Below are positions 503 through 53,429 of a DNA stretch of 64,000 nt, piece by piece (the stretch's first letter is position 1; each line of letters opens with the position of its first letter). The position numbers and the translations under genes are program-made. This DNA comes from a virus, in the IMG/VR virus record IMGVR_UViG_3300037454_000906, positions 96,001 to 160,000 of that record. One strand, written 5' to 3'. The notes below the pieces were generated by a model. The model did not search any database and was not told where the DNA came from. It saw nothing but the letters and a program-made list of their open reading frames with translations.

Positions 503-1048
503 TTAGAGGAGGTTTCTCGGTGCGTCTACAGGTGCGTCGTATTTCAGGTAATCGAATGACTGGATTTCATATCCGGTAAGGGAGAGGAAAATTGATGCCG
601 GGAAGGAACGGACATAGCGCTTGTATTCCTTCACGCTCTGGTTGTAGTTCTCACGCACGGCAGCAATCTTGTTCTCGGTCAATGCCAGTTCCGTCATGTA
701 CTGGCGGTAATTCTGGTTTGCCTTCAATTCCGGGTAGCGTTCTGCCACGGCCTGGATGTAGGCACTGGCGTTAACCTGCTGGTTGGAATTTTCCTTGGGG
801 CCGCGGGCCTTGGCGAGTTCCACGATGACCTCGCTTTCGTGCTTGTTGTAGCTCTTGACGGCATCCGCCAGGTTGTAGAGGAGGTCCACTCGGCGCTTCT
901 GGTACACGTCGATGTCCGAGAAGGCGGTGTTCACCTGTTCTTCCATGGAGATTGCGGAGTTGCGGTAGGAGAAGCATCCCACGACACAGGCGCCAACGAG
1001 GGCAGCGATTGCGAAGAGGAAGATGAGGGTGATCTTGAGGTATTGCAT
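503..1048 (-). CDS. lemA: LemA family protein
   Basis: N-terminal TM, then YQKRRVDLLYNL, AERYPELKAN and LTENKIAAVRENYN..V..Y..Y...FP motifs. Confidence 0.9.
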   Translation of the reverse strand: MQYLKITLIFLFAIAALVGACVVGCFSYRNSAISMEEQVNTAFSDIDVYQKRRVDLLYNLADAVKSYNKHESEVIVELAKARGPKENSNQQVNASAYIQAVAERYPELKANQNYRQYMTELALTENKIAAVRENYNQSVKEYKRYVRSFPASIFLSLTGYEIQSFDYLKYDAPVDAPRNLL

Positions 1049-2228: not shown

Positions 2229-3230
2229 TTATACAATGTAATCGGTCACCACCTCGTTCGTCACGGCACCCTTGCGCCTGTATGCGAAGTGCGCCTTGAC
2301 GAGTACGGTCTTGCCGCGCATCCGCGCATAGTGCGCATGGACGAGCCAGCAGGGGACATTGAAGTTCGAGTATTCCCTAGTGCTCGTTAGTGCAGGTGAA
2401 TACTTCTTCCAGTTGTCGTCGGTGATGTGGATGTAGCGGTATGCCACGGAATGCTTCAACGGCTTCTTGCCGGCGTAGATTGCCTTGCGGTCCGTCTCGT
2501 TCCTGGAATCCTGAGGCTCGGATACAGGCTGGCAAGTACGCAGCTCCTCGGCAATCCATAGGTTGGCCAGCAGGCCCTCCACGTCGAATATGTTGCCTGT
2601 CTTGGAGTTGTCGTATTCGTCGTCGTATACGATGTCCGCCCCCTTCATGTCCTTGTCGCGCACTTCCTCGGCGACCGGGATGTTGAAGAATTCGTTCTCT
2701 CCCTGCTTCGGGTCACGACGGTGGACGAGGTAGCACATCTCCTGGGAAGCCATGAGGTAGATGTAGTCGAGGTGGCCGTTGAGCGGAAGCTCGATAAGTT
2801 CCTCGTAGAAGGAGGAACGGATTCCGGGCTGCACCTCTTCTTCGGGGTTCGCCTTGGCCATGTCGGCCAGGTGTTTCCTGTATTCCATGCGGAGCTCCTT
2901 GGTGGGGGCTCCCAGGGACATAAGGAACTCGGTGGCCCTGAGGGACAGCTTGCGCATGCGGCACCGTTCGCCAGGGTAGATGTAGGAATCGCAGAGGTAC
3001 GGGTTGATGTCGACGTTAAAGGCACCGCTGAGATCGACCTTCTCGTGGGTCTTCTCGTACTCATGTACCGTGAACGGCAGGACTTTGAGTCTGCGTTTGC
3101 GGTTGATGGACTTGTCCGCCGTCAGGGCCTCCTTCACCATGGGAATGGTATCAGACACCCCGAGTACCTGGTGTACGCGGCGCAGGACTAAGTCGTTGCA
3201 GTTGAAGACGATAGGGTTTACGGTTTCCAT
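2229..3230 (-). CDS. conserved phage hypothetical protein (C-terminal VxxH..R motif type)
   Basis: Long ORF ending WLVHAHYARMRGKTVLVKAHFAYRRKG; ATG 6 nt after the -10 box. Confidence 0.75.
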   Translation of the reverse strand: METVNPIVFNCNDLVLRRVHQVLGVSDTIPMVKEALTADKSINRKRRLKVLPFTVHEYEKTHEKVDLSGAFNVDINPYLCDSYIYPGERCRMRKLSLRATEFLMSLGAPTKELRMEYRKHLADMAKANPEEEVQPGIRSSFYEELIELPLNGHLDYIYLMASQEMCYLVHRRDPKQGENEFFNIPVAEEVRDKDMKGADIVYDDEYDNSKTGNIFDVEGLLANLWIAEELRTCQPVSEPQDSRNETDRKAIYAGKKPLKHSVAYRYIHITDDNWKKYSPALTSTREYSNFNVPCWLVHAHYARMRGKTVLVKAHFAYRRKGAVTNEVVTDYIV

Positions 3231-3236
3231 GCTCAA

Positions 3237-3265
3237 AATGTAGCATTGTGCGAATCGGATGGCAA
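3237..3265 (-). promoter_or_regulatory. early promoter, leaderless
   Basis: TTGCCA-N17-TACATT-N6-ATG. Confidence 0.75.
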
Positions 3266-3359
3266 CTTATGTCGGATTTTTGAAAAAATCGACACAATTT
3301 TTCGAATTTCCGGTGCGTTTTGATGTAGTTTCCCGGTAAGAAATAATATAGGAGGTACC

Positions 3360-4739
3360 ATGGGATACCGAGGAAACGACCATCTTCGTCCGGCCACAGA
3401 GGAAATCTCGCTACTGCCTTGGCAGCAAGAGGAAATCATGAAGTGTGCCGATGACCCGGAATACTTCATCCGGAACTACTGCTACATCCACACGAAGGAT
3501 GCCGGGATGCAGCTATTCAACCTGCGACCAAGGCAGGCACAGGAACTGAAAAACATGCAGGAACACCGCTTCATAAAGGGAGACTGGTACAGGCAATCCG
3601 GCTATTCGACAACCGTACTGGCTTACATGCTATGGGATACCATATTCTCGGAAACCCCGCACTTCAACGTCTACATGGGCGAAAAGGAAGACAGGGCCAA
3701 GGAAGAATTCTACAAGGTGAAGCAGATGTACCTTAACTTGCCATACTGGATGCAACCGGGTGTGAAACATTGGACGAATGAAGCCATATGTATGGCTGAC
3801 GGCAGGCGTTTCATTGCAACCGTACCGTCCCCGGACACCGTTCGAGGATTTTCGCCGTACATACTGTTTGTCGACGACTTTGGGTTATACACGGACAATC
3901 GCGCATTGAACCTGGTACAATCCGTGTTCCCGACCATCATGTCCGGCAACAGCAGGCACCTGATTACTGGCAGCAGTCACAAGTTCGGAAACCAGACACC
4001 ATTCAACCTCACGTTCTGGAAAAACTCAGAGAAGCACTTCTTCGTATCCGAGAACACCTGGGACACCGATACCCAACATGATGAAGAATGGGCCAGGGCA
4101 GAACGCCAAAAAATCGGCGACTTCAAGTTCGAACGCTTCTACTGCGGCAAGATTGTCCAGGATGTCATGGACCAGCCGGAAAAGGAAGAACCGCCCAAAA
4201 TCTTCTGGTCCAACAAGATCGACCAAATACCGGACCTGATTCGCCGTACCCGCTGGAATGCAAAGTTCCATTCCCGCAACGATGACTGGGAGACCATAAA
4301 CGACCACCTGTCCGTCATCAACATGGCACATGACAGTGTAGAGTACATGGGCCACAGTTATCCCGCCCTACGGTTCTTCGTAAGGAATGACGAGGGAATG
4401 ATACCCACCGCAATGTTCCTGGAAGGGTACGTGACGGTGGACCTGAATATCTACGACTTTAAGTTGGGTAACATCGTGGCGACTACACGATACAGGTGTC
4501 TGTGCCTCAGGTCCCTTATCCAGCCTGACCCGCTCGTGTATGAAGGTGATAACCCGAAATACATGAACACAGTGATTACCCTGATTGTCCTGGATACCTG
4601 CCCAATCATCGAAGGCGCCGGCGGTATGCGTGAACTACCCGACGAAGCGGATGAGATATCGCTGAACCGTATACTACAGGAACGAAGCGGACGAAGGGCG
4701 GCAATATCGGAATTCCTGGAAGATGCTTGCATGCCATAA
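3360..4739 (+). CDS. T4 gp17-like terminase ATPase paralogue with degenerate Walker motifs and an unrelated C-terminus
   Basis: EIMKCADDPEYFIRNY; RQSGYST in place of RQxGKS/T; VRGFSPYILFVDDF in place of YxDE; no nuclease DxxxG motif seen. Confidence 0.8.
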   Translation: MGYRGNDHLRPATEEISLLPWQQEEIMKCADDPEYFIRNYCYIHTKDAGMQLFNLRPRQAQELKNMQEHRFIKGDWYRQSGYSTTVLAYMLWDTIFSETPHFNVYMGEKEDRAKEEFYKVKQMYLNLPYWMQPGVKHWTNEAICMADGRRFIATVPSPDTVRGFSPYILFVDDFGLYTDNRALNLVQSVFPTIMSGNSRHLITGSSHKFGNQTPFNLTFWKNSEKHFFVSENTWDTDTQHDEEWARAERQKIGDFKFERFYCGKIVQDVMDQPEKEEPPKIFWSNKIDQIPDLIRRTRWNAKFHSRNDDWETINDHLSVINMAHDSVEYMGHSYPALRFFVRNDEGMIPTAMFLEGYVTVDLNIYDFKLGNIVATTRYRCLCLRSLIQPDPLVYEGDNPKYMNTVITLIVLDTCPIIEGAGGMRELPDEADEISLNRILQERSGRRAAISEFLEDACMP

Positions 4740-4746
4740 CGAAAAA

Positions 4747-4764
4747 GGCCCGGAAATCCGGGCC
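4747..4764. terminator. bidirectional intrinsic terminator
   Basis: GGCCCGG-AAAT-CCGGGCC between convergent genes, T-rich tails on both strands. Confidence 0.8.
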
Positions 4765-4767
4765 ATT

Positions 4768-5232
4768 TCATTTTGCCTTGCTGAGGAGCGAATTGTACAA
4801 GTTCATCAGTGATCGCAGATGTTCGACTTCCATGGGCAGGAAAGGAAGCCTCAGATTAACGTTTTCGTATTCAATGGGTTGGATATCGACATACCGGAAC
4901 GTGTAAGTAACCCCAGTGGGATGACTGAAAGAACCCAAATGTTCATTGCACCACCTGGAAATCAGCTCATCACATACCGGCCCAAGCGATTTTCCTATGT
5001 TGAAATATGACAGGTGCTCCCTATTGCTGCAATGGAAGAACAGTAGAATATTCCATCCCGGTGCAACTTCGGCGGCTGCTGCGGCAGTCTCGTACGCATC
5101 CGGCTCCACGCCTATAAGGCGGGCAAGGGAGTACGCGTCATCGGAACGCCTCTCGTTTTTGAACTTCGCGATGACCTTCATGATGAACTTCGTTACAATC
5201 ATGGTGCAGATGGAAAGTTTCAGGTACTTCAT
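4768..5232 (-). CDS. hypothetical protein
   Basis: 154-aa ORF. Confidence 0.65.
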   Translation of the reverse strand: MKYLKLSICTMIVTKFIMKVIAKFKNERRSDDAYSLARLIGVEPDAYETAAAAAEVAPGWNILLFFHCSNREHLSYFNIGKSLGPVCDELISRWCNEHLGSFSHPTGVTYTFRYVDIQPIEYENVNLRLPFLPMEVEHLRSLMNLYNSLLSKAK

Positions 5233-5301: not shown

Positions 5302-5847
5302 TTATTGCCCTTCCTGCATCTGCATGGACAGGTCGATCGCATTCGCAATTTCGGTGGGCACCGGTACTTCGTCTAAGGGGACACGATACTTGACCATTTC
5401 CCTAACGAGCGTACTGGAGATGCACCTGTGCTGCGGCTTGGCGATGAGAGGAATGAACTCGAATCTGGTGCCGTGGCTGAACATCGAATACTGTTCGGAA
5501 AGCATGATTTCGGACGATGCGTCTTCCATAGTCCGGATTCCACGGACGATGTTCTTGCAACCGCCCAGATCATCGGCGTGTGCAATCATGTATCCCGGAA
5601 CCGTAGTATCTTCGGGGAGGATGTCAACCACGTATTTCTCCGGCTTGTTAAACGTGCGCAAGAGAGTGGCTTCGATGGCGGATTTCATGACATTTACCGG
5701 GATAAACCTCCCGGACTTGGCCGAGTTGGTGGAGATTAGTATGACGACCTTGTCGAACAGGACTCCCGCCCTAGCCACAATGTCGAGATGCCCGTTGGTG
5801 AACGGGTCAAATGACCCCGGGTATACGCATGTACGTTTGATTTCCAT
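5302..5847 (-). CDS. coaD: phosphopantetheine adenylyltransferase
   Basis: YPGSFDPFTNGHLDIVARA, IVRGIR..D...E, ISSTLVRE. Confidence 0.9.
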   Translation of the reverse strand: MEIKRTCVYPGSFDPFTNGHLDIVARAGVLFDKVVILISTNSAKSGRFIPVNVMKSAIEATLLRTFNKPEKYVVDILPEDTTVPGYMIAHADDLGGCKNIVRGIRTMEDASSEIMLSEQYSMFSHGTRFEFIPLIAKPQHRCISSTLVREMVKYRVPLDEVPVPTEIANAIDLSMQMQEGQ

Positions 5848-5857
5848 AATTATCTCC

Positions 5858-6619
5858 TTATTTTCCGTTTAACGTGTCACAAATCTGGTTCACGAGTGAA
5901 TCCAGCAGTTCCGGATCATCGTTGCGCAGTACAACCGGCATGATGACATTGGAATGGGAAGAATCGATGACTTCCTGGCAGTTTCTGTCAAGGTTTTCTT
6001 GCAGTGCCAAGGTCCTTCGGATCATCATTCCGTAATCGTCGAGTAGTTCCGCGTTGCGGCTGATTTCATCCGTTGTGGAACTATCATTCGCGTCACCTGT
6101 CCGTTCTACCCGGATGCCGAGGCGTTTACGGTATCTCTCCACGACACGGCTTACCTGTTCGTTTGGATCGCTTACCGTTATCCTGAATTGATGGATGCAC
6201 TCGGATGGGACGATATCCAGAATGGTCTTGATAATCCAGTTGAACCGATGCGGCGCCTCGATGAACACGGTACCCTCCAGACTGTACGTGGGATCGGGGG
6301 ACTGCGGTTCAAGCGCATAGGTGATAGCTTCCTTCAATGCGCAGATCAATGCATTTCGACTAATCCGGTCAAGCCATATGTAAGTGTCCATACTTTCCAT
6401 GGCTTCGTCGCGGATACCAGTGCTTAGGGAACCATCCGGCCCGATGACGCTCTGGTTGTACTTACCGAACAATACGGCGCGTACAGCGGGATTCACACGG
6501 AATACATCCTTGCGGAGCTGATCAGTATCAATTACCACATATCCACGCCTGCGGAGCATGTCTGAAATTGTACTCTTGCCGGTACCGATATGGCCCGTGA
6601 TTAATACTATGTTCTTCAT
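5858..6619 (-). CDS. coaE: dephospho-CoA kinase-like
   Basis: ITGHIGTGKSTISDML...G..VIDTD; adjacent to coaD. Confidence 0.8.
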   Translation of the reverse strand: MKNIVLITGHIGTGKSTISDMLRRRGYVVIDTDQLRKDVFRVNPAVRAVLFGKYNQSVIGPDGSLSTGIRDEAMESMDTYIWLDRISRNALICALKEAITYALEPQSPDPTYSLEGTVFIEAPHRFNWIIKTILDIVPSECIHQFRITVSDPNEQVSRVVERYRKRLGIRVERTGDANDSSTTDEISRNAELLDDYGMMIRRTLALQENLDRNCQEVIDSSHSNVIMPVVLRNDDPELLDSLVNQICDTLNGK

Positions 6620-7092
6620 TGTTGGTTTCCTTGTGTCTGGCGCAATGCAGCTAAGTCATTCTCCTCGGCACTACGTAAAAGGTTGTTGTATACGTTGTTC
6701 AATGCGAACAACAATTCGGACTGTAGTGGCCATATGGTGTGCTGCCACATGTCGCATTTCCGGTAGGTTGACCGCACGCCGGTATATGTCACTTCTCCGG
6801 TGGTTGGGAGGTGTCCATAACACCAGATGTTCAACAGGATGTCCGCCGATGTGCCGAGCGAGTACCCGAGCTCGTAATCCATGCGCTGTCCGGACTTGTC
6901 ACGGAAGCATACGTACAGATAGAGATTGTCGAACCGTCTCGCACGGTTGTTGGCACTCCGCCACATGTCGGGTGATATGCCATCGGGAACATTGGTATAT
7001 CCAGAACGGCCAATGGTGGCCATGCAATACATCTTCTTAGCGAAGGCGCCAAGTATGCATCCATATATTGTCAGGATGAACCATTTCTTCAT
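6616..7092 (-). CDS. hypothetical protein
   Basis: ORF with ATGA overlaps at both ends. Confidence 0.65.
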   Translation of the reverse strand: MKKWFILTIYGCILGAFAKKMYCMATIGRSGYTNVPDGISPDMWRSANNRARRFDNLYLYVCFRDKSGQRMDYELGYSLGTSADILLNIWCYGHLPTTGEVTYTGVRSTYRKCDMWQHTIWPLQSELLFALNNVYNNLLRSAEENDLAALRQTQGNQQ

Positions 7093-7868
7093 GATAGGGT
7101 AGTATCCTGGAATATCCGTTCCACGGGGTTACCCTCGCATGTCTCGTTTCCGCGGTAGCGATGGGTGTCATAGCGAGGATCCTGTCCGATGATGCCGTAT
7201 GTGGCGGAATCCGCGAGCGGCGAAGTCTTGCATATGCTGAACAAGGCATTGTCAAGGTATGGATACCTCCGCATCTCATTGAGCAGGTGGTCTATTATGA
7301 AATCGACATAGCCCAGATACGCCCCGTTGAAGCAGATGAACCCCTTGTTGATCCCAACCATAAGCAGCTTGAACTCCTTGCGCCTGGACACGAAATCATA
7401 TACCGCCTCGGTGATGTGCGGATATGTCGCGGAAAACACGTCATCCAGTACCATGAGGCCACCAGGTTTCAAGAGACGCGAGCACATTTCCAGGTCCTGC
7501 TCCACGCATTCGAGGGAATGCCCCCCGTCAATATGGATGAAGTCCATACAACGACCCACTACCTTGTCCAGGTCGGCAAAACAGGACATTGCCTGGTACC
7601 CATGTATCTTGTCCTCGGGAAGCCCGGCATGCTTCGTCACGTTTTCATATGTTGCCTTCCAGTGTCCAGGGTCACATTCAATGTACCTGAACTCCCCGGA
7701 CGTATTTGACGCAATTATGACCGATGTTCTCCCATCCCATGTACCGATTTCCAGGGTATTCTCAGGTTCAATATACCTCAGGAAACAATCCATCAGGACC
7801 ATGGCTTCGTAGTTGTTGAACCCATGTATGGTCTCGATGGAATGCATGTCGAATATTTGGTTACGCAT
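7089..7868 (-). CDS. class I SAM-dependent methyltransferase (Methyltransf_24-like)
   Basis: LEIGTWDGRT, DFIHIDGGHS, LKPGGLMVLDD. Confidence 0.85.
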   Translation of the reverse strand: MRNQIFDMHSIETIHGFNNYEAMVLMDCFLRYIEPENTLEIGTWDGRTSVIIASNTSGEFRYIECDPGHWKATYENVTKHAGLPEDKIHGYQAMSCFADLDKVVGRCMDFIHIDGGHSLECVEQDLEMCSRLLKPGGLMVLDDVFSATYPHITEAVYDFVSRRKEFKLLMVGINKGFICFNGAYLGYVDFIIDHLLNEMRRYPYLDNALFSICKTSPLADSATYGIIGQDPRYDTHRYRGNETCEGNPVERIFQDTTLS

Positions 7869-8792
7869 CTTCGCGAATCTCTTTGTAGAAGTTATGTTCC
7901 GGGCGTATGTCGAACTCGATGTCAATATATTTAAGGGGGTGACCATATTCACCCTTGCGGTGGCACGAGTGGCAGTAACCGCATTCCGCAAAGCGGATTA
8001 GCCCTTTCCCGGGTTTGTCCGTTATCTCGTCATTCACGTAAACCGCACAATCGCTCTGGTCTTCGCAGGACACGGTGAGTGATTCGACACCAAAGGCCTT
8101 AAGATTCTCGTAAATTTCCTTTTTGTCGGTGTGCGCCAAGGGGAATTTCAACGGGGGTACACGGAATATCTTCTCGTTGGGATGATATATCGCATGGGAA
8201 ATCTTCATTACGGACTTGTACATACCCCTCAGTTCGGGAACATAGTACAGCGCATCGTCTCCGTCGACGAATCCAGCCTGGATTGATTCGAGCTTTCCAA
8301 GATATCCCTTGCCATGAACCCGAGCGAGAATATGTTGATTGGCTGTTGAATCAATCCATGCTTGTCTGCCATGCCGGCGCGCCACCCATTGATTGCACAA
8401 TATGGATCCTGCAACAAGTGGCCGTACTTACGATTCAGGGACTGTAGGGCCACCATGGTCATGAGACGATAAACCGGAAAGTCGCTATTGATTTCGTTGA
8501 TAATGGGGAGGACGTTCTTGCCCTGTTCCATTTCTCTAGCGGCGAGGTAGGTGCTATCCATGCCCCCGCTAAACAGAATGCCCACCGTGCCAATCGGTAC
8601 ATTACGCGGAACGTGCCGGGTGCTGATCGTGTCGTCGGATTCCATTTGGAATTCGTCCTTCAGCACGGCCTCAACTGCCGATTTCCAGCAATATACCCTT
8701 CTCCACGGAGGTTCGGGTGCTTTCATCTCCGATTTCGGGTGTTCAGATACTCTGATCACAGGCGCACCTTCTTGCTCTTCAGTTTCCCGCAT
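7861..8792 (-). pseudogene. QueC/ExsB-like PP-loop ATPase split by a 1-nt frameshift near 8295
   Basis: SGGMDS in one frame; GFVDGDDA, PL...K, SC and CGYCHSC in the other; one extra A in GGAAAG would fuse them. Confidence 0.7.
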
Positions 8793-44823: not shown

Positions 44824-46592
44824 ATCTGCATCAATCCACGCCGTAAGAAATCTAGGCTTCCTTGGCGGAAGTACAAGATATAATTCTGGACGTTAGGTGT
44901 CGCATTCAGCAAGTCTGTGTTACATATATCAGCGACTTTGGTTACGAACTGGTTCCTAATTGGTTTGAACCGGAAGCACAAGTCATCGAACCTGTCGTTC
45001 CCACGAGCGACGTTACGATACGTTATGAATGGCTTGTTGAATATCAAACTGAATACAGTACCGTGGTATGAATCGGTTATGACATACTTAGCTTTGTTCA
45101 TATTGCTGATAAACTGCTCACAGCTCCCATCAAATGGAAGAACTTGCGTTCCTAGTGTATTGGCTAGTTTGTTCAATGAAGACTGCCATTCGGTACTGTC
45201 GTCAAGTATATAGGCAAATATACCGTCATTATCAAGGCAAGGTGACTCATTGATAGTATTTAAGTAGAAATTAGCGTCGTGCAACATCGTCGGATCGAGC
45301 ACCGGCGTCGAGTCGACGTGGAACCATCGCCGGGTCATTACCTGACCAAACAGCTCGCGAGTCGATATGTACTTGACTTGTTTAAGCGACTCTCTAATAC
45401 GACGTATTTCGTCATCACTATATAAGTAGTCGTGATGACCGAACGAAGCTGCATAGACAACTTTTTTGATGGTTGGATGAATACAATATTTATCATTAAA
45501 TGGTACCGGCGTACAGTAAAGTCGATTCCATACTTGATCGCTACCAACCACCATCACCTGGTAACTATCATTTATTGAGTTAGACTCCCATTTACAGTGC
45601 TTATCAAAGTATTTAAGATGCCCATTGTCAATTTGGTTAGGAAATACTGGTTGGAATCCAGTATATTCTTGAATTATGCTGGAAAGCGACACCGCCTGTA
45701 AAATTCCGCCAACATTTTTGTACACTTGATCCGTGACGATGCCAATTTTCGGTTGTGTTGTGAGTTTAGTGTAAAATGAATGATATGGTGGAACCGTCAG
45801 TTTCATATCAATACAGTTGTTCTTGGTAACAAAGGAATAATCAATTTGTACCTTGTTGATATCAGCCAACTCAACCAGTTTCTGACCCTTCTCAGTATGA
45901 ATGACGACAGCGGATAACCCTCGATTGTCGCTAGGCACTTTGTCACCGAGTTGTGTGTAACCCCACAGGTCGCCAATACTAATATCGGCCACGCTGTTCG
46001 CTCTATATTTACACTCGAAACACGACTTATTTAAAATGGTATTATTTAAGAATAACTGTATATAACGATTAGTATTATGGGATTCGTATAGCTCGGTTCC
46101 ATCCTTGAACTTAATCGAAATACCATAATTTGTCCACCCGTTTCGCTTGTCACGAAAATTAACTGATTCAATTGGTTTTCCAAGTTCCCTTAAATAGCGT
46201 TGCCATGCGTTCGCATTCGGTGTTCCATGGCAAAATATATCGACCGTGTACAAGTTTTCATAGTCTTTCTTTAGGAAGGCTTTTAAACCATATATTTGGC
46301 ACGGGGTTCCCGTGTATAACACCGTCGTACCAGCTTCCAATAAGTCTTCGCAATCCTTGAATGAGGTACCAGGTTTAGCCCTCAAATATTTCGACCCCAT
46401 CATAGGCGTGATATCGGAGTTAGTTCCTTTCATAACCACACTAAAGTCCGTATCGAACACCGCGCCGAATACGTACCCATCATCGGCTAAAACTTTGCTG
46501 GCAAAAGCTGAAAACATACCCCCGCTGCTACTATTAAACCGATCGATATCATGACGATTGTATGCGGCATAGACTTGCATAATTTTAGACAT
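44820..46592 (-). CDS. FrhB/FdhB C-terminal domain fused to polysaccharide pyruvyl transferase
   Basis: SSSGG, GSKY, GTPCQI, CHG; then GILQA, VGSDQVWN, YAASFG, STRE, DPT, TDSYHG..FS.IF.KPF. Confidence 0.85.
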   Translation of the reverse strand: MSKIMQVYAAYNRHDIDRFNSSSGGMFSAFASKVLADDGYVFGAVFDTDFSVVMKGTNSDITPMMGSKYLRAKPGTSFKDCEDLLEAGTTVLYTGTPCQIYGLKAFLKKDYENLYTVDIFCHGTPNANAWQRYLRELGKPIESVNFRDKRNGWTNYGISIKFKDGTELYESHNTNRYIQLFLNNTILNKSCFECKYRANSVADISIGDLWGYTQLGDKVPSDNRGLSAVVIHTEKGQKLVELADINKVQIDYSFVTKNNCIDMKLTVPPYHSFYTKLTTQPKIGIVTDQVYKNVGGILQAVSLSSIIQEYTGFQPVFPNQIDNGHLKYFDKHCKWESNSINDSYQVMVVGSDQVWNRLYCTPVPFNDKYCIHPTIKKVVYAASFGHHDYLYSDDEIRRIRESLKQVKYISTRELFGQVMTRRWFHVDSTPVLDPTMLHDANFYLNTINESPCLDNDGIFAYILDDSTEWQSSLNKLANTLGTQVLPFDGSCEQFISNMNKAKYVITDSYHGTVFSLIFNKPFITYRNVARGNDRFDDLCFRFKPIRNQFVTKVADICNTDLLNATPNVQNYILYFRQGSLDFLRRGLMQI

Positions 46593-46622
46593 ATTATCCT
46601 CGGATAAATAGGTTGAATGATG

Positions 46623-47417
46623 TTAGTAATTTTGAATACATTTATTCTTATCCCAAATCTTCTTCAATTCTGGGGAAACCTTCCACAGCTTATTCCACAT
46701 AGATGAAATCTGCCCCCACTGGTCACTCATAATTCGACCCATAGCGACATCTTGATTACTAGCTTGCATATGCAAGATCGAATAAGCGTCAACCGCTCTA
46801 TATCGTGTACCATTCAGAACATGCAACAGCCGCATAAATTCGTCATCCATATCCTTAAAGAACTCATGACCAAAAGTCTCATCCAACGGATAAAGTGAAT
46901 TAGGCGGATAAAGGGCAACACCATACCGAACATTGTCGATACAGCCGTTAAGTGTTAAATCGGGTAATACGTGGTTATACCCATAGATAACTCGATCTGG
47001 ATCCTTGGTATGGAGTTCCCACAGCGTAGTCAAGAAATTGTTCTTCGCCGGGGAATCGTCGTCGACCGTGATGATAGGAACATCTGGGTAAGCACGAGCC
47101 ACTGGGAAGTATTTTTTGTAAGCCTTAGTATTCGCACCAGTCCACATCAACTCAGCGTTCGGGGCTAATTTTATAACAGTAACCAGTTCGGCGGGCAGCT
47201 CAACTTCCTTCATAGGAAACTCGTCCGTACTAAGCACCAAGATAACCTTAAAGTTACACACCTTGGGCTGCTTTATAAAACTAAAAAGAGTTAATCGAAG
47301 GATTTCGCTATTGATGCGGCCCTTCCATGAAGTCATTGCAATTATGCAGTCTAGTCTTTCGCTCATACCACCAAGTTTATACAGTCGCTTAACCGGATCG
47401 TAGCGAGGCGTAGACAC
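46623..47417 (-). CDS. GT-A fold glycosyltransferase-like
   Basis: MTSW..RI, LS.DEFP, YKK..P, IITVDDD. Confidence 0.7.
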   Translation of the reverse strand: MSTPRYDPVKRLYKLGGMSERLDCIIAMTSWKGRINSEILRLTLFSFIKQPKVCNFKVILVLSTDEFPMKEVELPAELVTVIKLAPNAELMWTGANTKAYKKYFPVARAYPDVPIITVDDDSPAKNNFLTTLWELHTKDPDRVIYGYNHVLPDLTLNGCIDNVRYGVALYPPNSLYPLDETFGHEFFKDMDDEFMRLLHVLNGTRYRAVDAYSILHMQASNQDVAMGRIMSDQWGQISSMWNKLWKVSPELKKIWDKNKCIQNY

Positions 47418-47618
47418 GCCGATACGAATTTGCTATAAAGCACTGCTACATACTCTCGGAGACCGACTGGACGCACATCAGCCCGTACGTGGCAACTACG
47501 CACCGGTTCGAGCAAGTAGGCAACCCTTCGCAAGTCCGGAACTATGGGTACCATAGTCTCGAATGCATGGACACCCGCGAAAGTAGCCAGATTGAGCATT
47601 TGTTGCTATATTAGTGGC

Positions 47619-48368
47619 ATGAAGGTATACAGAGAAGACAAACTGGTATGGGAAGGCGAACTTTCCATACGCGATGGGAAACCCTTTCCGTTATTCATCA
47701 TAGGAGAAATCCTGACCATCATAAAAAAGGATGGGACGGTGGTAGAAGGGGCCGTCCAGTCAAGAGCATGGAGCAATTCGGAAGACTTCGCCGCGGTCAT
47801 ATTGGTGTTACCCGGCGGAACAGCCGAGAAGGTCATGATCAATCCTGGGGAGATTGACACCCTCACCATCACGTACCCCGAAGTAAAGCTGGAGTTCACG
47901 GTAGAGTCCAAGACGGTTCCGCACAATGAAGGTTCGTTCTATGTCGCGGAATTCCACATAGACCAGAACGACCGGAAGAATATCGTGATTTCGTCCGTCC
48001 GCAAGCCGGGAAAGCCGAGCAGGGAGGAACTGGGCAGGTTCAGCCTCATGAGCGGAAAGTACACGGAATTGATCAAGAGCAACCCCGCGAGCGGCAAGTA
48101 TAGAGAACTGGGCTTCTATGGAAAATGGGACGATGTCCCCCTGATGCAGAACGCACTCGCGTCATATCTGTATGGGCGCATTTATAACCCGGCCAGCGGG
48201 TTCAAGATCATATCGGTCCAAGTATGGGGATACGACGCTGACCTCGGTGAGTTCATTGAATACAAGCTGCCCACGCTGGAAGATATGAATATCGTACCTG
48301 GAGGAATTACGCTGGAACAGGCCTATGCTACCCTGTTCAAGGATTTCAACGTCGACCACTGGAGGTAG
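47619..48368 (+). CDS. hypothetical protein
   Basis: Leaderless: TAGCCA-N17-TATATT-N6-ATG at 47584-47621. Confidence 0.7.
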   Translation: MKVYREDKLVWEGELSIRDGKPFPLFIIGEILTIIKKDGTVVEGAVQSRAWSNSEDFAAVILVLPGGTAEKVMINPGEIDTLTITYPEVKLEFTVESKTVPHNEGSFYVAEFHIDQNDRKNIVISSVRKPGKPSREELGRFSLMSGKYTELIKSNPASGKYRELGFYGKWDDVPLMQNALASYLYGRIYNPASGFKIISVQVWGYDADLGEFIEYKLPTLEDMNIVPGGITLEQAYATLFKDFNVDHWR

Positions 48369-50707: not shown

Positions 50708-52780
50708 TTATGCTGCATCAGCGTAAGCCCACTTATAACCACCGGCAGTTTTATTACGCCCAGTTAATACTTCATGTATAGAAGATGTATGGATACCTAC
50801 GGCATCCGCAGCGGCTTTAATAGAATCGTAAATTTGGACGACATGATTATTTTTAGATATCTGTTTAATAGCGCGTTTTGTATTTTTGGGCTTATAATTC
50901 ATACCAGGAAATACAATATCGCTTATCGGGGTTGTGCTGTATGCCCATACATATCCGCCCGCCATGTGGTGTTCGCCCATCAAAACTTTTCGAATTGATG
51001 TTACTGATACTTTGCATTCACGCGAGGCTTCATTAACTGACCCAAATTGGTTAATACGGTCACCATCTAAGTTGTATTGAATCACAGGCCGTTTAGAAGA
51101 TGGTGGGATATATTGGCTCCCTGGAAATTTAATATCAGATATATCGGTCGTACTATATGCCCAGACATAACCACCTGCCGTCATTGCATCCCCTCTAAGA
51201 ACTGAACCAATGTTAGATTGTGCTATTCCAACCGCCTTGGCGGCATCCTTTATTGAATTATATTGGCGAATAAGTGTTCCATCATAATTATACTGGGAAA
51301 CTGGTTTTCTCGGTCGAGATTTCGAACGATAATCATAACCAGGAAATACGATGGTTGCTTTAGGAACCGATTCATATACCCACACATAGTTTTTTAATGT
51401 TCTCTGACGGCCAGATAAGCATTCGCAAATGGCACTTGTTTGTACATCGACTGCCCTAGCAGCCGCTGCAATAGAGACATGAGTCGCAACAAATTTACCA
51501 TCCAAAGTATATTGGCATACTCGCTTGGGTGCCGATAAGTTGTCAGAAAACCATTCATCAATCCAGCCTCGCTTACTACAATGGTCTGCCAGTGTTTTAT
51601 AGGCATCCCTAAATTCGCGTCGTGTATTGAATTGCATTGCATAATGGTAAGCATCGTCCTTAGACATATTAGACCACATACCATTGTTCGATTTCTTTAA
51701 TTTCAACCAAGGAAACTTTCCGCGAAGATGCTTATGACAAATAGAGCTATATAATCCTGGATACGCTTTTGCAAAGTCGTTCCAATACTTGAACGGCTTA
51801 GCCACTTTCAGTAATTTTGGCATTGTCCATTTACCAAAGCCAATGCTACCCATACTTCCGCCTCTTGCCTTATTTAGCAGAGTCCACCCTAAACTTCGAT
51901 ATAAAGCAATCATCTTGCATTCCATTTCCCCATGCTTATCGCCCTTTGTCTTTATTGCAAATGTGGCAAGAATGCGAGGCTCCGGTATCGAGACGCCAAT
52001 AGATTTAGCATATTGAACAATAGAATCGTTATCGTTATGACAATGGTCGTAATGGCGGCGTTTTAGGTCGATAGTTCTACCAATGTATGCTACATTCGTC
52101 ATCGGAAATTCATATACATATACGGTATCATATAGTAAACCATTCTTATAGCCATTAGATTGTTCCAAGAATGCTATTTTTTCGTGCCAATGATTTTTAG
52201 ATACAACAGAATACATACCCGGATATTTTTCGCGGAAATACTTGAGGGTAGGGCATTGCTTCGCCGTATTAACTATCACTTCTTCCGTATATATCCGTCT
52301 GCGTTCGATTTCTTGCCGACGAGTTGTGAGTGCATCTTGTAGTCCAAGTTTGTCTAGCCATTTTTCTCTAACAGCAATTCTATACATCTGGGGTTCAGCT
52401 TGCTTAAAATCTATTCGTTTACAGCAGCCAGCTGCTAATAATTTATCCACAACAGCTTTACATTTTTCAAAAGTAATTGCAGTTTTTCTCCAATGATATT
52501 CAGGTATCCATTTATCAAGCCATCCAGACCGCATAGCTTTATAATATGCAGCATGGTCCATTTTGAAGAACTCGGTTCTAGTTTTGCATTGTTTGGCAAT
52601 GTTATGACAGGTGTCATAATCCAAGGTTTTGAATACAGTATGGGGTATGAGAGTTTCAATCCATCCCATTTTGCATGCCTTGCGATATGCTTGCCTATCC
52701 AATCGCTTAAACTCATAGCGAGTGTTACACTTGCTTGCCGATGCAAGACAGGTTTCATAATCTAACTTTCTATTAGTCAT
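50708..52780 (-). CDS. GIY-YIG endonuclease with six helical repeats and four NUMOD1 repeats
   Basis: VYVY...AYIGRT..LKRRH..H, E, LLN; repeats K.V.QY..DG...F.SI..AA...W.Y; AT-rich. Confidence 0.85.
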   Translation of the reverse strand: MTNRKLDYETCLASASKCNTRYEFKRLDRQAYRKACKMGWIETLIPHTVFKTLDYDTCHNIAKQCKTRTEFFKMDHAAYYKAMRSGWLDKWIPEYHWRKTAITFEKCKAVVDKLLAAGCCKRIDFKQAEPQMYRIAVREKWLDKLGLQDALTTRRQEIERRRIYTEEVIVNTAKQCPTLKYFREKYPGMYSVVSKNHWHEKIAFLEQSNGYKNGLLYDTVYVYEFPMTNVAYIGRTIDLKRRHYDHCHNDNDSIVQYAKSIGVSIPEPRILATFAIKTKGDKHGEMECKMIALYRSLGWTLLNKARGGSMGSIGFGKWTMPKLLKVAKPFKYWNDFAKAYPGLYSSICHKHLRGKFPWLKLKKSNNGMWSNMSKDDAYHYAMQFNTRREFRDAYKTLADHCSKRGWIDEWFSDNLSAPKRVCQYTLDGKFVATHVSIAAAARAVDVQTSAICECLSGRQRTLKNYVWVYESVPKATIVFPGYDYRSKSRPRKPVSQYNYDGTLIRQYNSIKDAAKAVGIAQSNIGSVLRGDAMTAGGYVWAYSTTDISDIKFPGSQYIPPSSKRPVIQYNLDGDRINQFGSVNEASRECKVSVTSIRKVLMGEHHMAGGYVWAYSTTPISDIVFPGMNYKPKNTKRAIKQISKNNHVVQIYDSIKAAADAVGIHTSSIHEVLTGRNKTAGGYKWAYADAA

Positions 52781-53429
52781 TAGTAACCTCGCTTATTGTT
52801 TTAGCTTCTTTTCGTTTCTTGCGGTTCTCCTTACCGCGTCTGCTGTATAGTTTCGCCGAGAAGACGGCAAGGAGTGACAGCATGTCCTTCACCAGGTCTG
52901 CCTCGAACGACTCGCTCAAGACGGACTCGGTATATTCCACATCGACCCCGTGGGAGCGGAAGTATTCGACCAATAGATTGTAGTTGAACCTGGTCAGTCG
53001 GTCGTAGTGCTCGATAACCACCTTGTCGAACTTGTGCTCGGCAGCGAGACGCATCATTCGGAGCAGCTTCTTGCGGTTGTCGTTCAGACCCGAACCCACT
53101 TCCTCGAAGATTTCCACCACCGAATACTTCTTGCTGACGCAGTATTCCATCAGGCGGAGCTTCTGACGGTCAAGGTCTCCGTGGGACTTTTGGTCGGAGG
53201 TCGATACTCGGCAGTAGATGACCACACGGGTTCCGGCCTTGTTTTCAACCTCCGGTTCATCCACCTTCTCGCCCAGGTAGCGGCGAAGGTCGTCCTCGTC
53301 CCAGCGTCTATTCCCGCTCTTGCCGGAGCGGTAGACCTTGAACTTGCCTTCTTCCGTCCATCTGCGAAGAGTGTTCGGGCAGCAGCCGAGAATATCGCAG
53401 GCAGCCTTAGTTCTTACTTTCTTCCCCAT
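52773..53429 (-). CDS. tnpA: IS607 serine recombinase TnpA
   Basis: MerR-like HTH NTLRRW, IYCRVST..Q..DL.RQ, EVGSGLN..R, DRL.RF, FSAKLYSRR. Confidence 0.93.
   Translation of the reverse strand: MGKKVRTKAACDILGCCPNTLRRWTEEGKFKVYRSGKSGNRRWDEDDLRRYLGEKVDEPEVENKAGTRVVIYCRVSTSDQKSHGDLDRQKLRLMEYCVSKKYSVVEIFEEVGSGLNDNRKKLLRMMRLAAEHKFDKVVIEHYDRLTRFNYNLLVEYFRSHGVDVEYTESVLSESFEADLVKDMLSLLAVFSAKLYSRRGKENRKKRKEAKTISEVTND

What the first reader, a model, noticed from the sequence alone, without database searches (positions are those of the whole stretch)
3360..4739. Catalytically degenerate terminase-ATPase paralogue among early genes (possible anti-defence decoy)
Seen: the first ~265 aa follow T4 gp17, but the Walker A Lys is Tyr (RQSGYST) and the Walker B catalytic Glu is Asp (FVDDF). 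The RNase H nuclease domain is replaced by ~190 aa of unrelated sequence. The gene is a lone plus-strand unit with no packaging genes nearby. Known: Avs1-3 STAND receptors detect the large terminase, partly through its ATPase domain. Inference: this is an intact but inactive mimic that could titrate terminase sensors or regulate packaging.
Basis: partly seen in the sequence, partly recalled or inferred. Interest (0 to 1): 0.7.

Follow-up and report, generated by a model that had tools for sequence, protein, structure and literature searches.

The report
Dead terminase copy with tube-fold tail
A giant rumen phage keeps, besides its real DNA-packaging enzyme, a well-conserved copy whose ATP-burning site is dead and whose DNA-cutting half is replaced by a tail-tube-like domain; I found no paper on this family, and its job (packaging helper or immune decoy) is open.

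Summary
ORF 3360-4739 (+) encodes 459 aa. Residues 1-265 are a T4 gp17-type terminase ATPase domain. The Walker A Lys is Tyr, the catalytic Glu is Asp, and the adenine-stacking Tyr is Arg. In 37 homologues the Lys is never present (Y19/F15/H3).

The C-terminal ~165 aa are not an RNase H nuclease. They model as a beta-sandwich closest to tail-tube and tube-terminator proteins (Z up to 9.2).

The family is one clade, full length, under purifying selection (dN/dS about 0.12-0.5). It always sits as a lone plus-strand gene with its own RBS and terminator.

It is the only TerL-like gene in this 253-kb record, but the record is truncated. Its last gene is cut, and 17.8 kb adjoining that end in a 98.8%-identical contig are missing. 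Relatives whose paralogue is 79%, 57% and 37% identical carry an intact canonical TerL on the same contig. Two 81-91% complete relatives have only TerL, so the gene is accessory.

The paralogue reading is supported. The Avs-decoy idea is untested, and the ATP and active-site features that Avs2/Avs3 read are those lost here. I favour a non-enzymatic packaging-vertex role (about 0.35). The scan also flagged this family in another genome.

The parts
3360..4739 (+). CDS of the 459-aa dead-terminase paralogue (P0001), stop codon included
3360..4154 (+). N-terminal domain, residues 1-265: gp17-type TerL ATPase fold, including the region aligned to gp17 322-358 (subdomain II)
3531..3533 (+). Codon of R58, the position of T4 gp17 Y142 (adenine-stacking aromatic). 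R in 35 of 37 family members
3588..3611 (+). Walker A remnant YRQSGYST (residues 77-84). Y82 replaces the P-loop Lys; R78, Q79 and G81 are kept
3861..3881 (+). Walker B remnant ILFVDDF (residues 168-174). D172 is kept; D173 replaces the catalytic Glu
3960..3977 (+). C-motif region LITGSS (residues 201-206). GSS stands in place of the TTT/TST coupling motif
4155..4247 (+). Low-confidence linker, residues 266-296 (pLDDT below 50 for 268-296)
4248..4736 (+). C-terminal domain, residues 297-459: beta-sandwich plus two terminal helices. Nearest folds are tail tube, tube terminator (T4 gp3-like) and Hcp. No nuclease motifs
3320..3339 (+). Conserved promoter-like box TTGATGTAGTTTCCCGGTAA (the box starts one T earlier, at 3319). 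Similar boxes stand at the same distance before two genes in the morphogenesis region. It can also be read as a weak sigma-70 -35 element
3350..3355 (+). Shine-Dalgarno AGGAGG, 4 nt before the ATG
4747..4764 (.). Bidirectional intrinsic-terminator hairpin GGCCCGGAAATCCGGGCC, shared with the convergent 154-aa gene
2229..3236 (-). Divergently transcribed 335-aa gene of unknown family. It is always the upstream neighbour of the paralogue in the five contigs of the close clade examined (54-96% identity)
4768..5232 (-). Convergent 154-aa gene of unknown family. It is always the downstream neighbour in those same contigs

Best explanation
Shown: the gene is a conserved, non-catalytic paralogue of the phage lineage's own large terminase. 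It keeps the gp17-type ATPase fold, including the segment that aligns to gp17 subdomain II, the LPYWMQPG loop and the R/Q of the P-loop. It has lost the three residues needed to bind and hydrolyse ATP. The nuclease domain is replaced by a beta-sandwich of tail-tube or tube-terminator type. A separate canonical TerL does the packaging.

Inferred: it works by binding, not by catalysis. It probably uses the retained terminase surfaces to dock on a natural terminase partner (portal, TerL ring, or DNA at the packaging vertex). The tube-fold domain may supply ring-type oligomerisation. On this reading it is an accessory adaptor or regulator of packaging initiation or head completion, in a phage group where no classical small terminase was detected.
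For: Homology and fold of the N-domain.

Dead site conserved across 37 members: Lys position Y19/F15/H3/K0; Y142 position R35/K1/Q1; Glu position D27/N5/E4/Y1.

The family is one clade on a long stem, with support 100/98. dN/dS is 0.12-0.5 in both domains, and reading frames are intact from 96% down to 37% identity.

An intact TerL lies on the same contig in G015, G012, G001 and G002.

Many non-catalytic columns stay invariant or nearly so between paralogue and canonical TerLs. These include P128, W130, Q132 and G134, and W234, D241, W244, G253 and F257, which align to gp17 322-358.

Domain-association clues. In G003 and G004, a ribbon-helix-helix (RHH) plus a dead TerL ATPase domain sits in the small-terminase position, overlapping the TerL start. 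In G007, the same beta domain is fused to an RHH-like N-terminus.

The T4-type TerS family PF11053 was not found in five genomes of the group.

The promoter-like box is shared with two genes in the morphogenesis region.
Against: The gene is absent from two fairly complete relatives that have TerL (G005 at 81%, G010 at 91%). It therefore cannot be a core packaging part.

It diverges far faster than TerL in the same genome pairs. For G015 and G012 the paralogue is 71% identical and TerL 95.5%; the paralogue N-domain is 57% and the TerL ATPase domain 98.9%. Its two domains recombine independently. It also sits among auxiliary genes. All of this is more typical of conflict genes.

The RHH-fused paralogues are a separate clade, so their genomic position cannot simply be transferred to this family.

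The tube-fold assignment is only moderate (Z 7-9, TM below 0.5). The promoter class is ambiguous.
Confidence: 0.35

Rival explanations
1. Anti-defence decoy or inhibitor. The dead terminase look-alike engages host sensors that recognise the TerL ATPase fold (Avs1-3, Upx or unknown ones). It either sequesters them or blocks their oligomerisation, so the real TerL goes unnoticed.
For: It is patchy and accessory. It diverges fast and its domains recombine as modules. It lies in an auxiliary-gene region. An 892-aa gene stands about 7-10 kb upstream, and earlier scan notes read it as a Cas-lambda-like nuclease. Methyltransferase genes lie a few kb downstream.

Terminase ATPase domains are established triggers of Avs2, Avs3 and Upx. 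Upx needs only the ATPase domain and, in most cases tested, no intact catalytic aspartates (PMC13601566).
Against: No sensor, host or binding data exist. Avs3 and Avs2 read the terminase-bound ATP, active-site residues and (Avs3) the native nuclease domain (PMC13601566), all of which are lost here. [quoted passage not shown] Binding a STAND sensor normally triggers it, so extra assumptions are needed. The loss of the ATP site could equally be a way to avoid detection.
Confidence: 0.2
2. Inter-phage or anti-satellite weapon. A dominant-negative terminase mimic that occupies portals or poisons TerL rings of co-infecting relatives or of satellites that hijack packaging.
For: The same signals of conflict-type evolution apply. 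TerL interaction surfaces are retained while catalysis is lost, which is the classic design of a dominant-negative subunit.
Against: It is closest to the lineage's own TerL (35% identity; tree), so it would be expected to poison its own motor. There is no evidence of satellites or of specificity determinants.
Confidence: 0.1
3. It is the phage's real and only large terminase, working with an unconventional ATP site and a nuclease supplied in trans.
For: It is the only TerL-like sequence in the 253-kb record, which CheckV rates 99% complete.
Against: The record is cut. Its last gene lacks about 40 codons, and 17.8 kb contiguous in a 98.8%-identical contig are absent. Contigs carrying the paralogue at 96% and 54% identity are 334.6 and 399.9 kb long. 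An IS605-type tnpB sits where the TerL 3' end lies in G015. Relatives carry both genes. Lys, the adenine-stacking aromatic and the catalytic Glu are all lost.
Confidence: 0.03
4. A decaying duplicate (pseudogene) with no function.
For: Catalytic residues are lost, and it diverges faster than TerL.
Against: The frame is intact in dozens of variants down to 37% identity. dN/dS is 0.12-0.5 in both domains. There are 60 invariant columns across 16 sequences. The RBS, terminator, upstream box and microsynteny are all conserved.
Confidence: 0.02

Closest known systems
T4 gp17-type large terminase (TerL; Pfam Terminase_6N + Terminase_6C), in particular the canonical TerL of the same huge-phage group (P0183, P0030, G012/G015 TerL)
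   Same: The N-terminal 265 aa share the ATPase fold and about 35% identity with the group's own TerL. The similarity runs from the first residue and includes the LPYWMQPG loop, the P-loop Arg/Gln/Gly, the Walker B Asp and the segment aligned to gp17 322-358.
   Different: There is no Walker A Lys, no adenine-stacking aromatic, Asp or Asn for the catalytic Glu, and an altered C-motif. The nuclease domain is replaced by a beta-sandwich. The gene lies away from the TerL/NrdDG block. It diverges much faster than TerL. The Pfam Terminase_6N model does not even report it.
T4 vs.8, an uncharacterised TerL-ATPase-like protein encoded among T4 early-region genes (PMC13601566)
   Same: A second, stand-alone terminase-ATPase-like protein encoded away from the packaging genes of a T4-type phage. 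Function unknown.
   Different: vs.8 is 216 aa and is only an ATPase core. It keeps Walker A (GRQSGKS) and Walker B (IIDE) and triggers EcAvs2. It has no detectable BLASTP similarity to P0001 and no tube-fold domain.
RHH + dead TerL-ATPase proteins in the small-terminase position of related huge phages
   Same: Degenerate copies of the same TerL ATPase domain (K to M or I, E to Q in one) kept beside an intact TerL. They suggest a non-catalytic role for TerL-derived domains in this phage group.
   Different: They form a separate clade. They have an N-terminal ribbon-helix-helix and no C-terminal beta domain, and they lie immediately upstream of TerL.
Tail tube, tube-terminator and Hcp fold family (T4 gp19/gp3, PVC/AFP tube, T6SS Hcp)
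   Same: The C-terminal domain model aligns best to these: 9mkb_AC Z 9.2; PVC, T4 and P1 tube proteins Z about 8; BFVD tail tube and gp3 at E about 1e-6.
   Different: There is no sequence-level family match. TM-scores are below 0.5. The domain is fused to a terminase domain and encoded outside the tail module.

Membership tests
Large terminase TerL (T4 gp17 type) | N-terminal ASCE P-loop ATPase fold homologous to gp17 | tested here: met
   phrog_5989 E 1.2e-40. PDB gp17 E 2e-15. Foldseek 2o0j E 1e-16, TM 0.65 normalised to the target.
Large terminase TerL (T4 gp17 type) | Walker A with the P-loop Lys (gp17 K166) | tested here: not met
   Y82 in P0001. Across 37 family members the position is Y19/F15/H3/K0.
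Large terminase TerL (T4 gp17 type) | Catalytic Glu after the Walker B Asp (gp17 E256) and adenine-stacking aromatic (gp17 Y142; role recalled from the T4 literature) | tested here: not met
   D173 and R58 in P0001. Family counts: Glu position D27/N5/E4/Y1; Y142 position R35/K1/Q1.
Large terminase TerL (T4 gp17 type) | C-terminal RNase H-like nuclease domain with catalytic Asp motifs | tested here: not met
   No PF17289 match. The D-x-G-Y-G and G-x-x-D-D motifs of canonical relatives fall in gaps of the family alignment. The fold search lists tube-type folds; on its own that does not exclude RNase H.
Large terminase TerL (T4 gp17 type) | Sole packaging ATPase of the genome | tested here: not met
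   Four relatives carry an intact TerL on the same contig as the paralogue. This record is truncated.
T4 vs.8-like TerL-ATPase paralogues | Sequence similarity to vs.8 and intact Walker A/B | tested here: not met
   BLASTP best E 1.7. vs.8 keeps GKS and DE; P0001 does not.
Small terminase (TerS) | N-terminal DNA-binding domain (HTH or RHH) and a gene directly upstream of TerL | tested here: not met
   No such domain in the model or in Pfam. In G015 the gene lies about 33 kb from TerL, and much farther in G012 and G001. The G003/G004 paralogues do meet both features.
Small terminase (TerS) | Ring oligomer that binds TerL | not testable with these tools
Tail tube / tube terminator / Hcp fold (C-terminal domain only) | Beta-sandwich fold superposable on tube proteins | tested here: inconclusive
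   Model pLDDT 79.5. VIA Z 9.2 down to 7, with nearly all of the top 35 rows from the tube family. Foldseek PDB E 5e-4, BFVD E 1.5e-6, but TM 0.35-0.47.
Tail tube / tube terminator / Hcp fold (C-terminal domain only) | Sequence-family membership and location in the tail module | tested here: not met
   No Pfam or PHROG tube family matched. An HMM of the domain hits nothing else in G000 or G001. The neighbours are auxiliary genes.
Anti-Avs decoy (hypothetical class) | Binds a terminase sensor and prevents its activation; expressed before TerL | not testable with these tools
   No host or sensor is known. The promoter class is ambiguous. The features read by Avs2/Avs3 are lost.

The most novel reading that the evidence does not exclude
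Huge phages of this group have turned copies of their own packaging ATPase into a family of pseudo-enzymes. These copies combine modularly with a tube-fold ring domain (this family) or with RHH DNA-binding domains (G003, G004, G007). Together they would form a previously unrecognised, terminase-derived replacement for the classical small terminase or portal adaptor. Alternatively, they would be a terminase mimic that has shed the ATP-site features read by Avs2/Avs3, letting it act on host terminase sensors without setting them off.
Probability: 0.3. Interest if true: 0.8.

Novelty: new variant of a known kind. Interest (0 to 1): 0.55.

Why it matters
Large terminases are among the most conserved phage proteins and are a main target of bacterial pattern-recognition immunity. 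Here a whole clade copies the terminase ATPase fold, abolishes ATP binding and swaps the nuclease for a tube-type domain, yet stays under selection in several huge-phage lineages. That shows the fold has a second, non-enzymatic use.

If it is a packaging adaptor, it could explain how these huge phages, in which no classical small terminase was detected, start or finish packaging.

If it is an immune decoy or stealth mimic, it would be a counter-defence aimed at terminase sensors, which the papers I could search do not describe. It would also give a natural panel of variants showing which terminase features the sensors need.

A practical point also follows. Automatic annotation calls this gene 'terminase large subunit' (PHROG 5989). 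That could mislead phylogenies and completeness estimates built on TerL. For this very record the true TerL is missing, although CheckV rates the record 99% complete.

Tried and rejected
1. Second TerL in G000. PF03237, PF17289 and phrog_2 were searched, plus tblastn with T4, S13, S-P4, P0030/32/33 and the G012/G015 TerLs. Only the paralogue was found. A phrog_2 hit at G000 140461-140919 (E 0.006, two stops) was rejected as chance, because no TerL query reproduces it.

2. Whole-record search of the 334.6-kb and 399.9-kb NCBI contigs was not possible; the records are not held. Matching contig lengths between the TerL and paralogue hit lists gave no overlap within the 120 rows shown.

3. Two scans of genome contigs found no relative. 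The family was not seen in the bacterial and archaeal species genomes scanned.

4. Walking beyond the right end of G000 by exact-protein look-ups gained 17.8 kb. All three contigs read stop at the same place, and no TerL lies in that stretch.

6. The protein atlas search on the C-terminal domain gave only scores below 0.9.

7. The Pfam TDH hit (E 0.018, 15 bits against a cut-off of 27) was rejected as noise.

8. The sigma-70 reading of the upstream box (TTGATG, 16 nt, AATAAT; 9 of 12 matches) is no more frequent than in shuffled sequence. It would also start the mRNA inside the Shine-Dalgarno sequence. It is kept only as an alternative.

9. The 20-nt box at up to 5 mismatches is no more frequent than in shuffles. 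Only its position before three genes is suggestive.

10. The T4-type TerS family PF11053 was not found in five genomes. TerS proteins diverge fast, so this is weak evidence.

11. Literature searches for terminase paralogues, decoys or inactive terminase-like proteins found nothing on this family.

12. The phage isolate collection has no member of the family. All 2557 hits are below 60% identity, and nearly all the rows shown lie on canonical TerL genes.
Full report
**1. The observation**

The window holds an uninterrupted ORF at 3360-4739 (+) of 459 aa. An AGGAGG ribosome site lies 4 nt before the ATG. A GC-rich hairpin at 4747-4764 serves as a terminator on both strands.

Residues 3-262 match PHROG 5989 'terminase large subunit' at E 1.2e-40. 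Residues 9-202 match the T4 gp17 ATPase domain in the PDB at E about 2e-15. An AlphaFold2 model (mean pLDDT 82) superposes on gp17 (2o0j) with TM 0.65 normalised to the target and rmsd 2.9 A over 276 columns.

gp17 K166 is Y82 (YRQSGYST), and the catalytic E256 is D173 (ILFVDDF). There are two more. The aromatic that stacks on adenine in gp17 (Y142; role recalled from the T4 literature) is R58. The C-motif TTT is GSS. Pfam's curated Terminase_6N model does not report the protein at all.

**2. The C-terminal part**

No Terminase_6C match exists. In alignments with canonical relatives, the two nuclease Asp motifs fall into gaps of this family.

Folded alone with 22 homologues, residues 262-459 give a confident beta-sandwich with two terminal helices (pLDDT 79.5, pTM 0.74). 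Foldseek against the PDB and against BFVD, and an independent all-against-all structural search, all put tail-tube family proteins on top. The best matches are a 175-residue chain of the T4 portal-neck-tail complex (Z 9.2), then PVC, AFP, P1 and T4 tube proteins and Hcp (Z 7-8.4), and BFVD 'tail tube' and 'gp3 tail completion' proteins (E about 1e-6).

TM-scores stay below 0.5, and Z of 7-8 is common for unmatched models. I therefore treat 'tube-type fold' as likely, not proven. An RNase H nuclease it is not, judging by its sequence motifs.

**3. A real family, not decay**

About 30 full-length homologues of 441-476 aa were found, at 96% to 35% identity over the whole length. A search without a word index added more distant members and some of about 260-360 aa that lack the C-terminal domain.

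Among 37 members the Walker A Lys is never present (Y19, F15, H3). The Y142 position is R in 35. The catalytic Glu position is D27/N5/E4/Y1.

In a maximum-likelihood tree of ATPase domains the family is one clade on a long stem (support 100/98), apart from all canonical TerLs.

Nei-Gojobori dN/dS between five orthologues is 0.12-0.5 in both domains.

The gene always sits alone on the plus strand, between the same 333-335-aa and 153-154-aa minus-strand genes. Its upstream region is conserved too.

**4. Is there a real terminase?**

In this record there is none. Pfam, PHROG and tblastn searches with eight different TerLs hit only this ORF.

But the record (253,117 bp, 'linear', CheckV 99%) is truncated:
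- Its last gene is open to the final base. It is 577 aa where orthologues, one of them 99% identical, are 617 aa.
- Contigs from other samples that overlap the right end at 98.8% identity continue for 17.8 kb that G000 lacks entirely.
- Contigs carrying the paralogue at 96% and 54% identity are 334.6 and 399.9 kb long.

Searching IMG/VR records that can be read whole gave the decisive result. G015 (paralogue 79% identical to P0001) has a 641-aa TerL on the same contig. G012 (57%) has a 627-aa TerL with both Pfam domains. G001 (37%, 355 kb, 93% complete) and G002 have both genes too. All these TerLs keep SRQVGKST, LDEF and the nuclease Asp motifs.

In G015 and G001, TerL lies in a conserved block with NrdD, NrdG and glycosyltransferase-like genes. 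None of that block is in G000. In G000 an IS605-type tnpB sits directly upstream of the late-promoter-like TATAAACT. In G015 that motif lies within the last codons of TerL, just before the next gene.

The paralogue reading stands.

**5. Distribution and tempo**

Of 15 records of this TerL group searched with the family profile, five have the paralogue: G001, G002, G007, G012 and G015. G005 (81% complete) and G010 (91%) have only TerL. The gene is therefore accessory.

In the same genome pairs it diverges much faster than TerL. For G015 and G012 the paralogue is 71% identical against 95.5% for TerL. Its N-domain is 57% against 98.9% for the TerL ATPase domain. For G015 and G001 the figures are 35% against 66%.

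The two domains have separate histories. One relative (L119) has an N-domain nearly identical to the window's (dS 0.06) but a C-domain saturated at synonymous sites and close to that of a 54% relative.

**6. Related inventions in the same phage group**

In G004 a 332-aa protein made of a ribbon-helix-helix (RHH; PF01402) plus a TerL ATPase domain overlaps the start of the canonical TerL, the classical small-terminase position. Its motifs read ARQMGMTT and LDQF.

G003 has three TerL-like genes in tandem: RHH plus ATPase-like (SRQAGIST), a 234-aa very degenerate copy, and the canonical TerL. These form a clade separate from the present family.

In G007 the family's beta domain recurs inside a 537-aa protein with an RHH-like N-terminus. 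The paralogue there is 362 aa, without that domain.

T4-type TerS (PF11053) was not detected in five genomes of the group. These domain combinations link dead TerL ATPase domains, the beta domain and sequence-specific DNA-binding modules.

**7. What it most likely does**

Shown: a selected, non-catalytic terminase paralogue with a new C-terminal domain, co-existing with an intact TerL.

Inferred: it acts by binding. Many non-catalytic columns stay invariant or nearly so between paralogue and TerL. They include the LPYWMQPG loop, the P-loop Arg/Gln/Gly, and the block aligned to gp17 322-358. From my memory of the T4 literature, that block lies in the subdomain implicated in portal contact.

Together with the domain associations in section 6, and a promoter-like box shared with two genes in the morphogenesis region, I favour an accessory adaptor or regulator at the packaging vertex (about 0.35).

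Against this stand the patchy distribution, the fast divergence and the auxiliary-gene neighbourhood. These fit a conflict role: a decoy for terminase sensors (about 0.2) or a dominant-negative weapon against competing phages or satellites (about 0.1).

For the decoy specifically, Evans et al. (PMC13601566) report three relevant points:
- SeAvs3 reads active-site residues, the bound ATP and the native nuclease domain.
- EcAvs2 uses a bridging ATP that contacts the terminase ATP.
- The T4 TerL-like protein vs.8 triggers EcAvs2.

This family has lost every one of those features. It looks more like a mimic that avoids these sensors than one that titrates them. Upx-type sensors need only the ATPase domain and, in most cases tested, no intact catalytic aspartates, so they remain possible targets.

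The timing of expression could not be settled. The upstream box resembles the TATAAACT(A/G)GTT late-type motif of this phage in position, and in 9 of 13 bases by my own count. It can also be read as a weak sigma-70 promoter with awkward geometry.

**8. Comparison with the known**

It is a derivative of gp17-type TerL but fails four defining features of that family (see the membership test). The nearest described analogue is T4 vs.8, a stand-alone TerL-ATPase-like protein of unknown function. vs.8 keeps its Walker motifs, has no extra domain, and shows no BLASTP similarity to P0001.

I found no paper on a dead terminase paralogue, on this domain architecture or on a terminase decoy. No cultured phage in the isolate collection carries the family.

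The scan itself flagged the same family in another genome (note e1-5482877, the RQSGFTT variant) and this same stretch twice.

**9. Verdict**

This is a new variant of a known kind. It is a previously undescribed pseudo-terminase family with a tube-fold domain, found in huge phages known only from metagenomes. Interest is moderate to high. The mechanism is open and testable with ordinary biochemistry.

Noticed in passing
G000:C1:251382-253117 (outside the window; L120:10385-12115): The 253-kb record ends inside a gene: 577 aa against 617-aa orthologues. It also lacks at least 17.8 kb that follow in 98.8%-identical contigs. CheckV's '99% complete' is therefore misleading for this record.
   Followed up: yes
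G000:C1:182349-183835 (outside the window): An IS605-type tnpB (423 aa) with a terminal hairpin abuts the TATAAACT promoter of gene 183836-184309. In relative G015 that spot is the 3' end of the canonical TerL. The whole TerL/NrdD/NrdG/glycosyltransferase block is missing from G000, which suggests an IS-mediated rearrangement or an assembly join at IS copies.
   Followed up: partly
L095:1222-2220 (G004); L096:1498-2463 and 804-1508 (G003): Related huge phages carry ribbon-helix-helix plus degenerate TerL-ATPase proteins (K to M or I, E to Q in one), and a third very degenerate copy. These lie in tandem directly upstream of, and overlapping, the canonical TerL, which is the small-terminase position.
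   Followed up: partly
L167:1784-3394 (G007): A 537-aa protein with an RHH-like N-terminus contains the same beta domain as the paralogue's C-terminus (HMM E 2.5e-12). In that genome the paralogue is only 362 aa and lacks the domain.
   Followed up: partly
window 3360-4739 compared with L119:10001-11383 and L008:10001-11386: The paralogue is mosaic. In L119 the N-domain is nearly identical to the window's (dS 0.06). The C-domain is saturated at synonymous sites and groups with a 54% relative. This indicates recombination at the inter-domain linker.
   Followed up: partly
G015 46015-47688 and 51272-53101 (L170); homologue at G000:C1:82792-84528: In G015 the segment with the 333-aa gene and the paralogue is flanked by two copies of a 558-610-aa ORF (83-90% identical to a G000 gene) and lies next to the structural block. 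This is either a mobile-element-bounded transposition or an assembly chimera.
   Followed up: no
window 3237-3275: A strongly conserved box, CAAAATGTAGCATT...GAATGGCAACTT, lies in the divergent intergenic region at the start of the 335-aa minus-strand gene. It is invariant from 96% to 54% relatives. It may be a shared operator or promoter element.
   Followed up: no
G000 genome-wide, e.g. 203844, 211572, 220225, 227880, 232172 (outside the window): TATAAACT occurs 26 times. Most copies in the 184-253 kb morphogenesis region lie about 20-50 nt before an ATG, like a T4-type late promoter with a different last base pair.
   Followed up: partly
window 503-1048, 5302-5847, 5858-6619, 7089-7991 (all minus strand): Neighbours of the paralogue are a LemA-family protein (which PHROG calls a virion structural protein), an NMN-adenylyltransferase-like cytidylyltransferase, a CoaE-like P-loop kinase and a class I methyltransferase. 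This is an auxiliary-metabolism cluster.
   Followed up: partly
L171:10137-10787 (T4 strain 147, KJ477685.1): The feature table returned for this T4 record lists no feature for vs.8 (216 aa, GRQSGKS / IIDE), although the ORF is intact.
   Followed up: no
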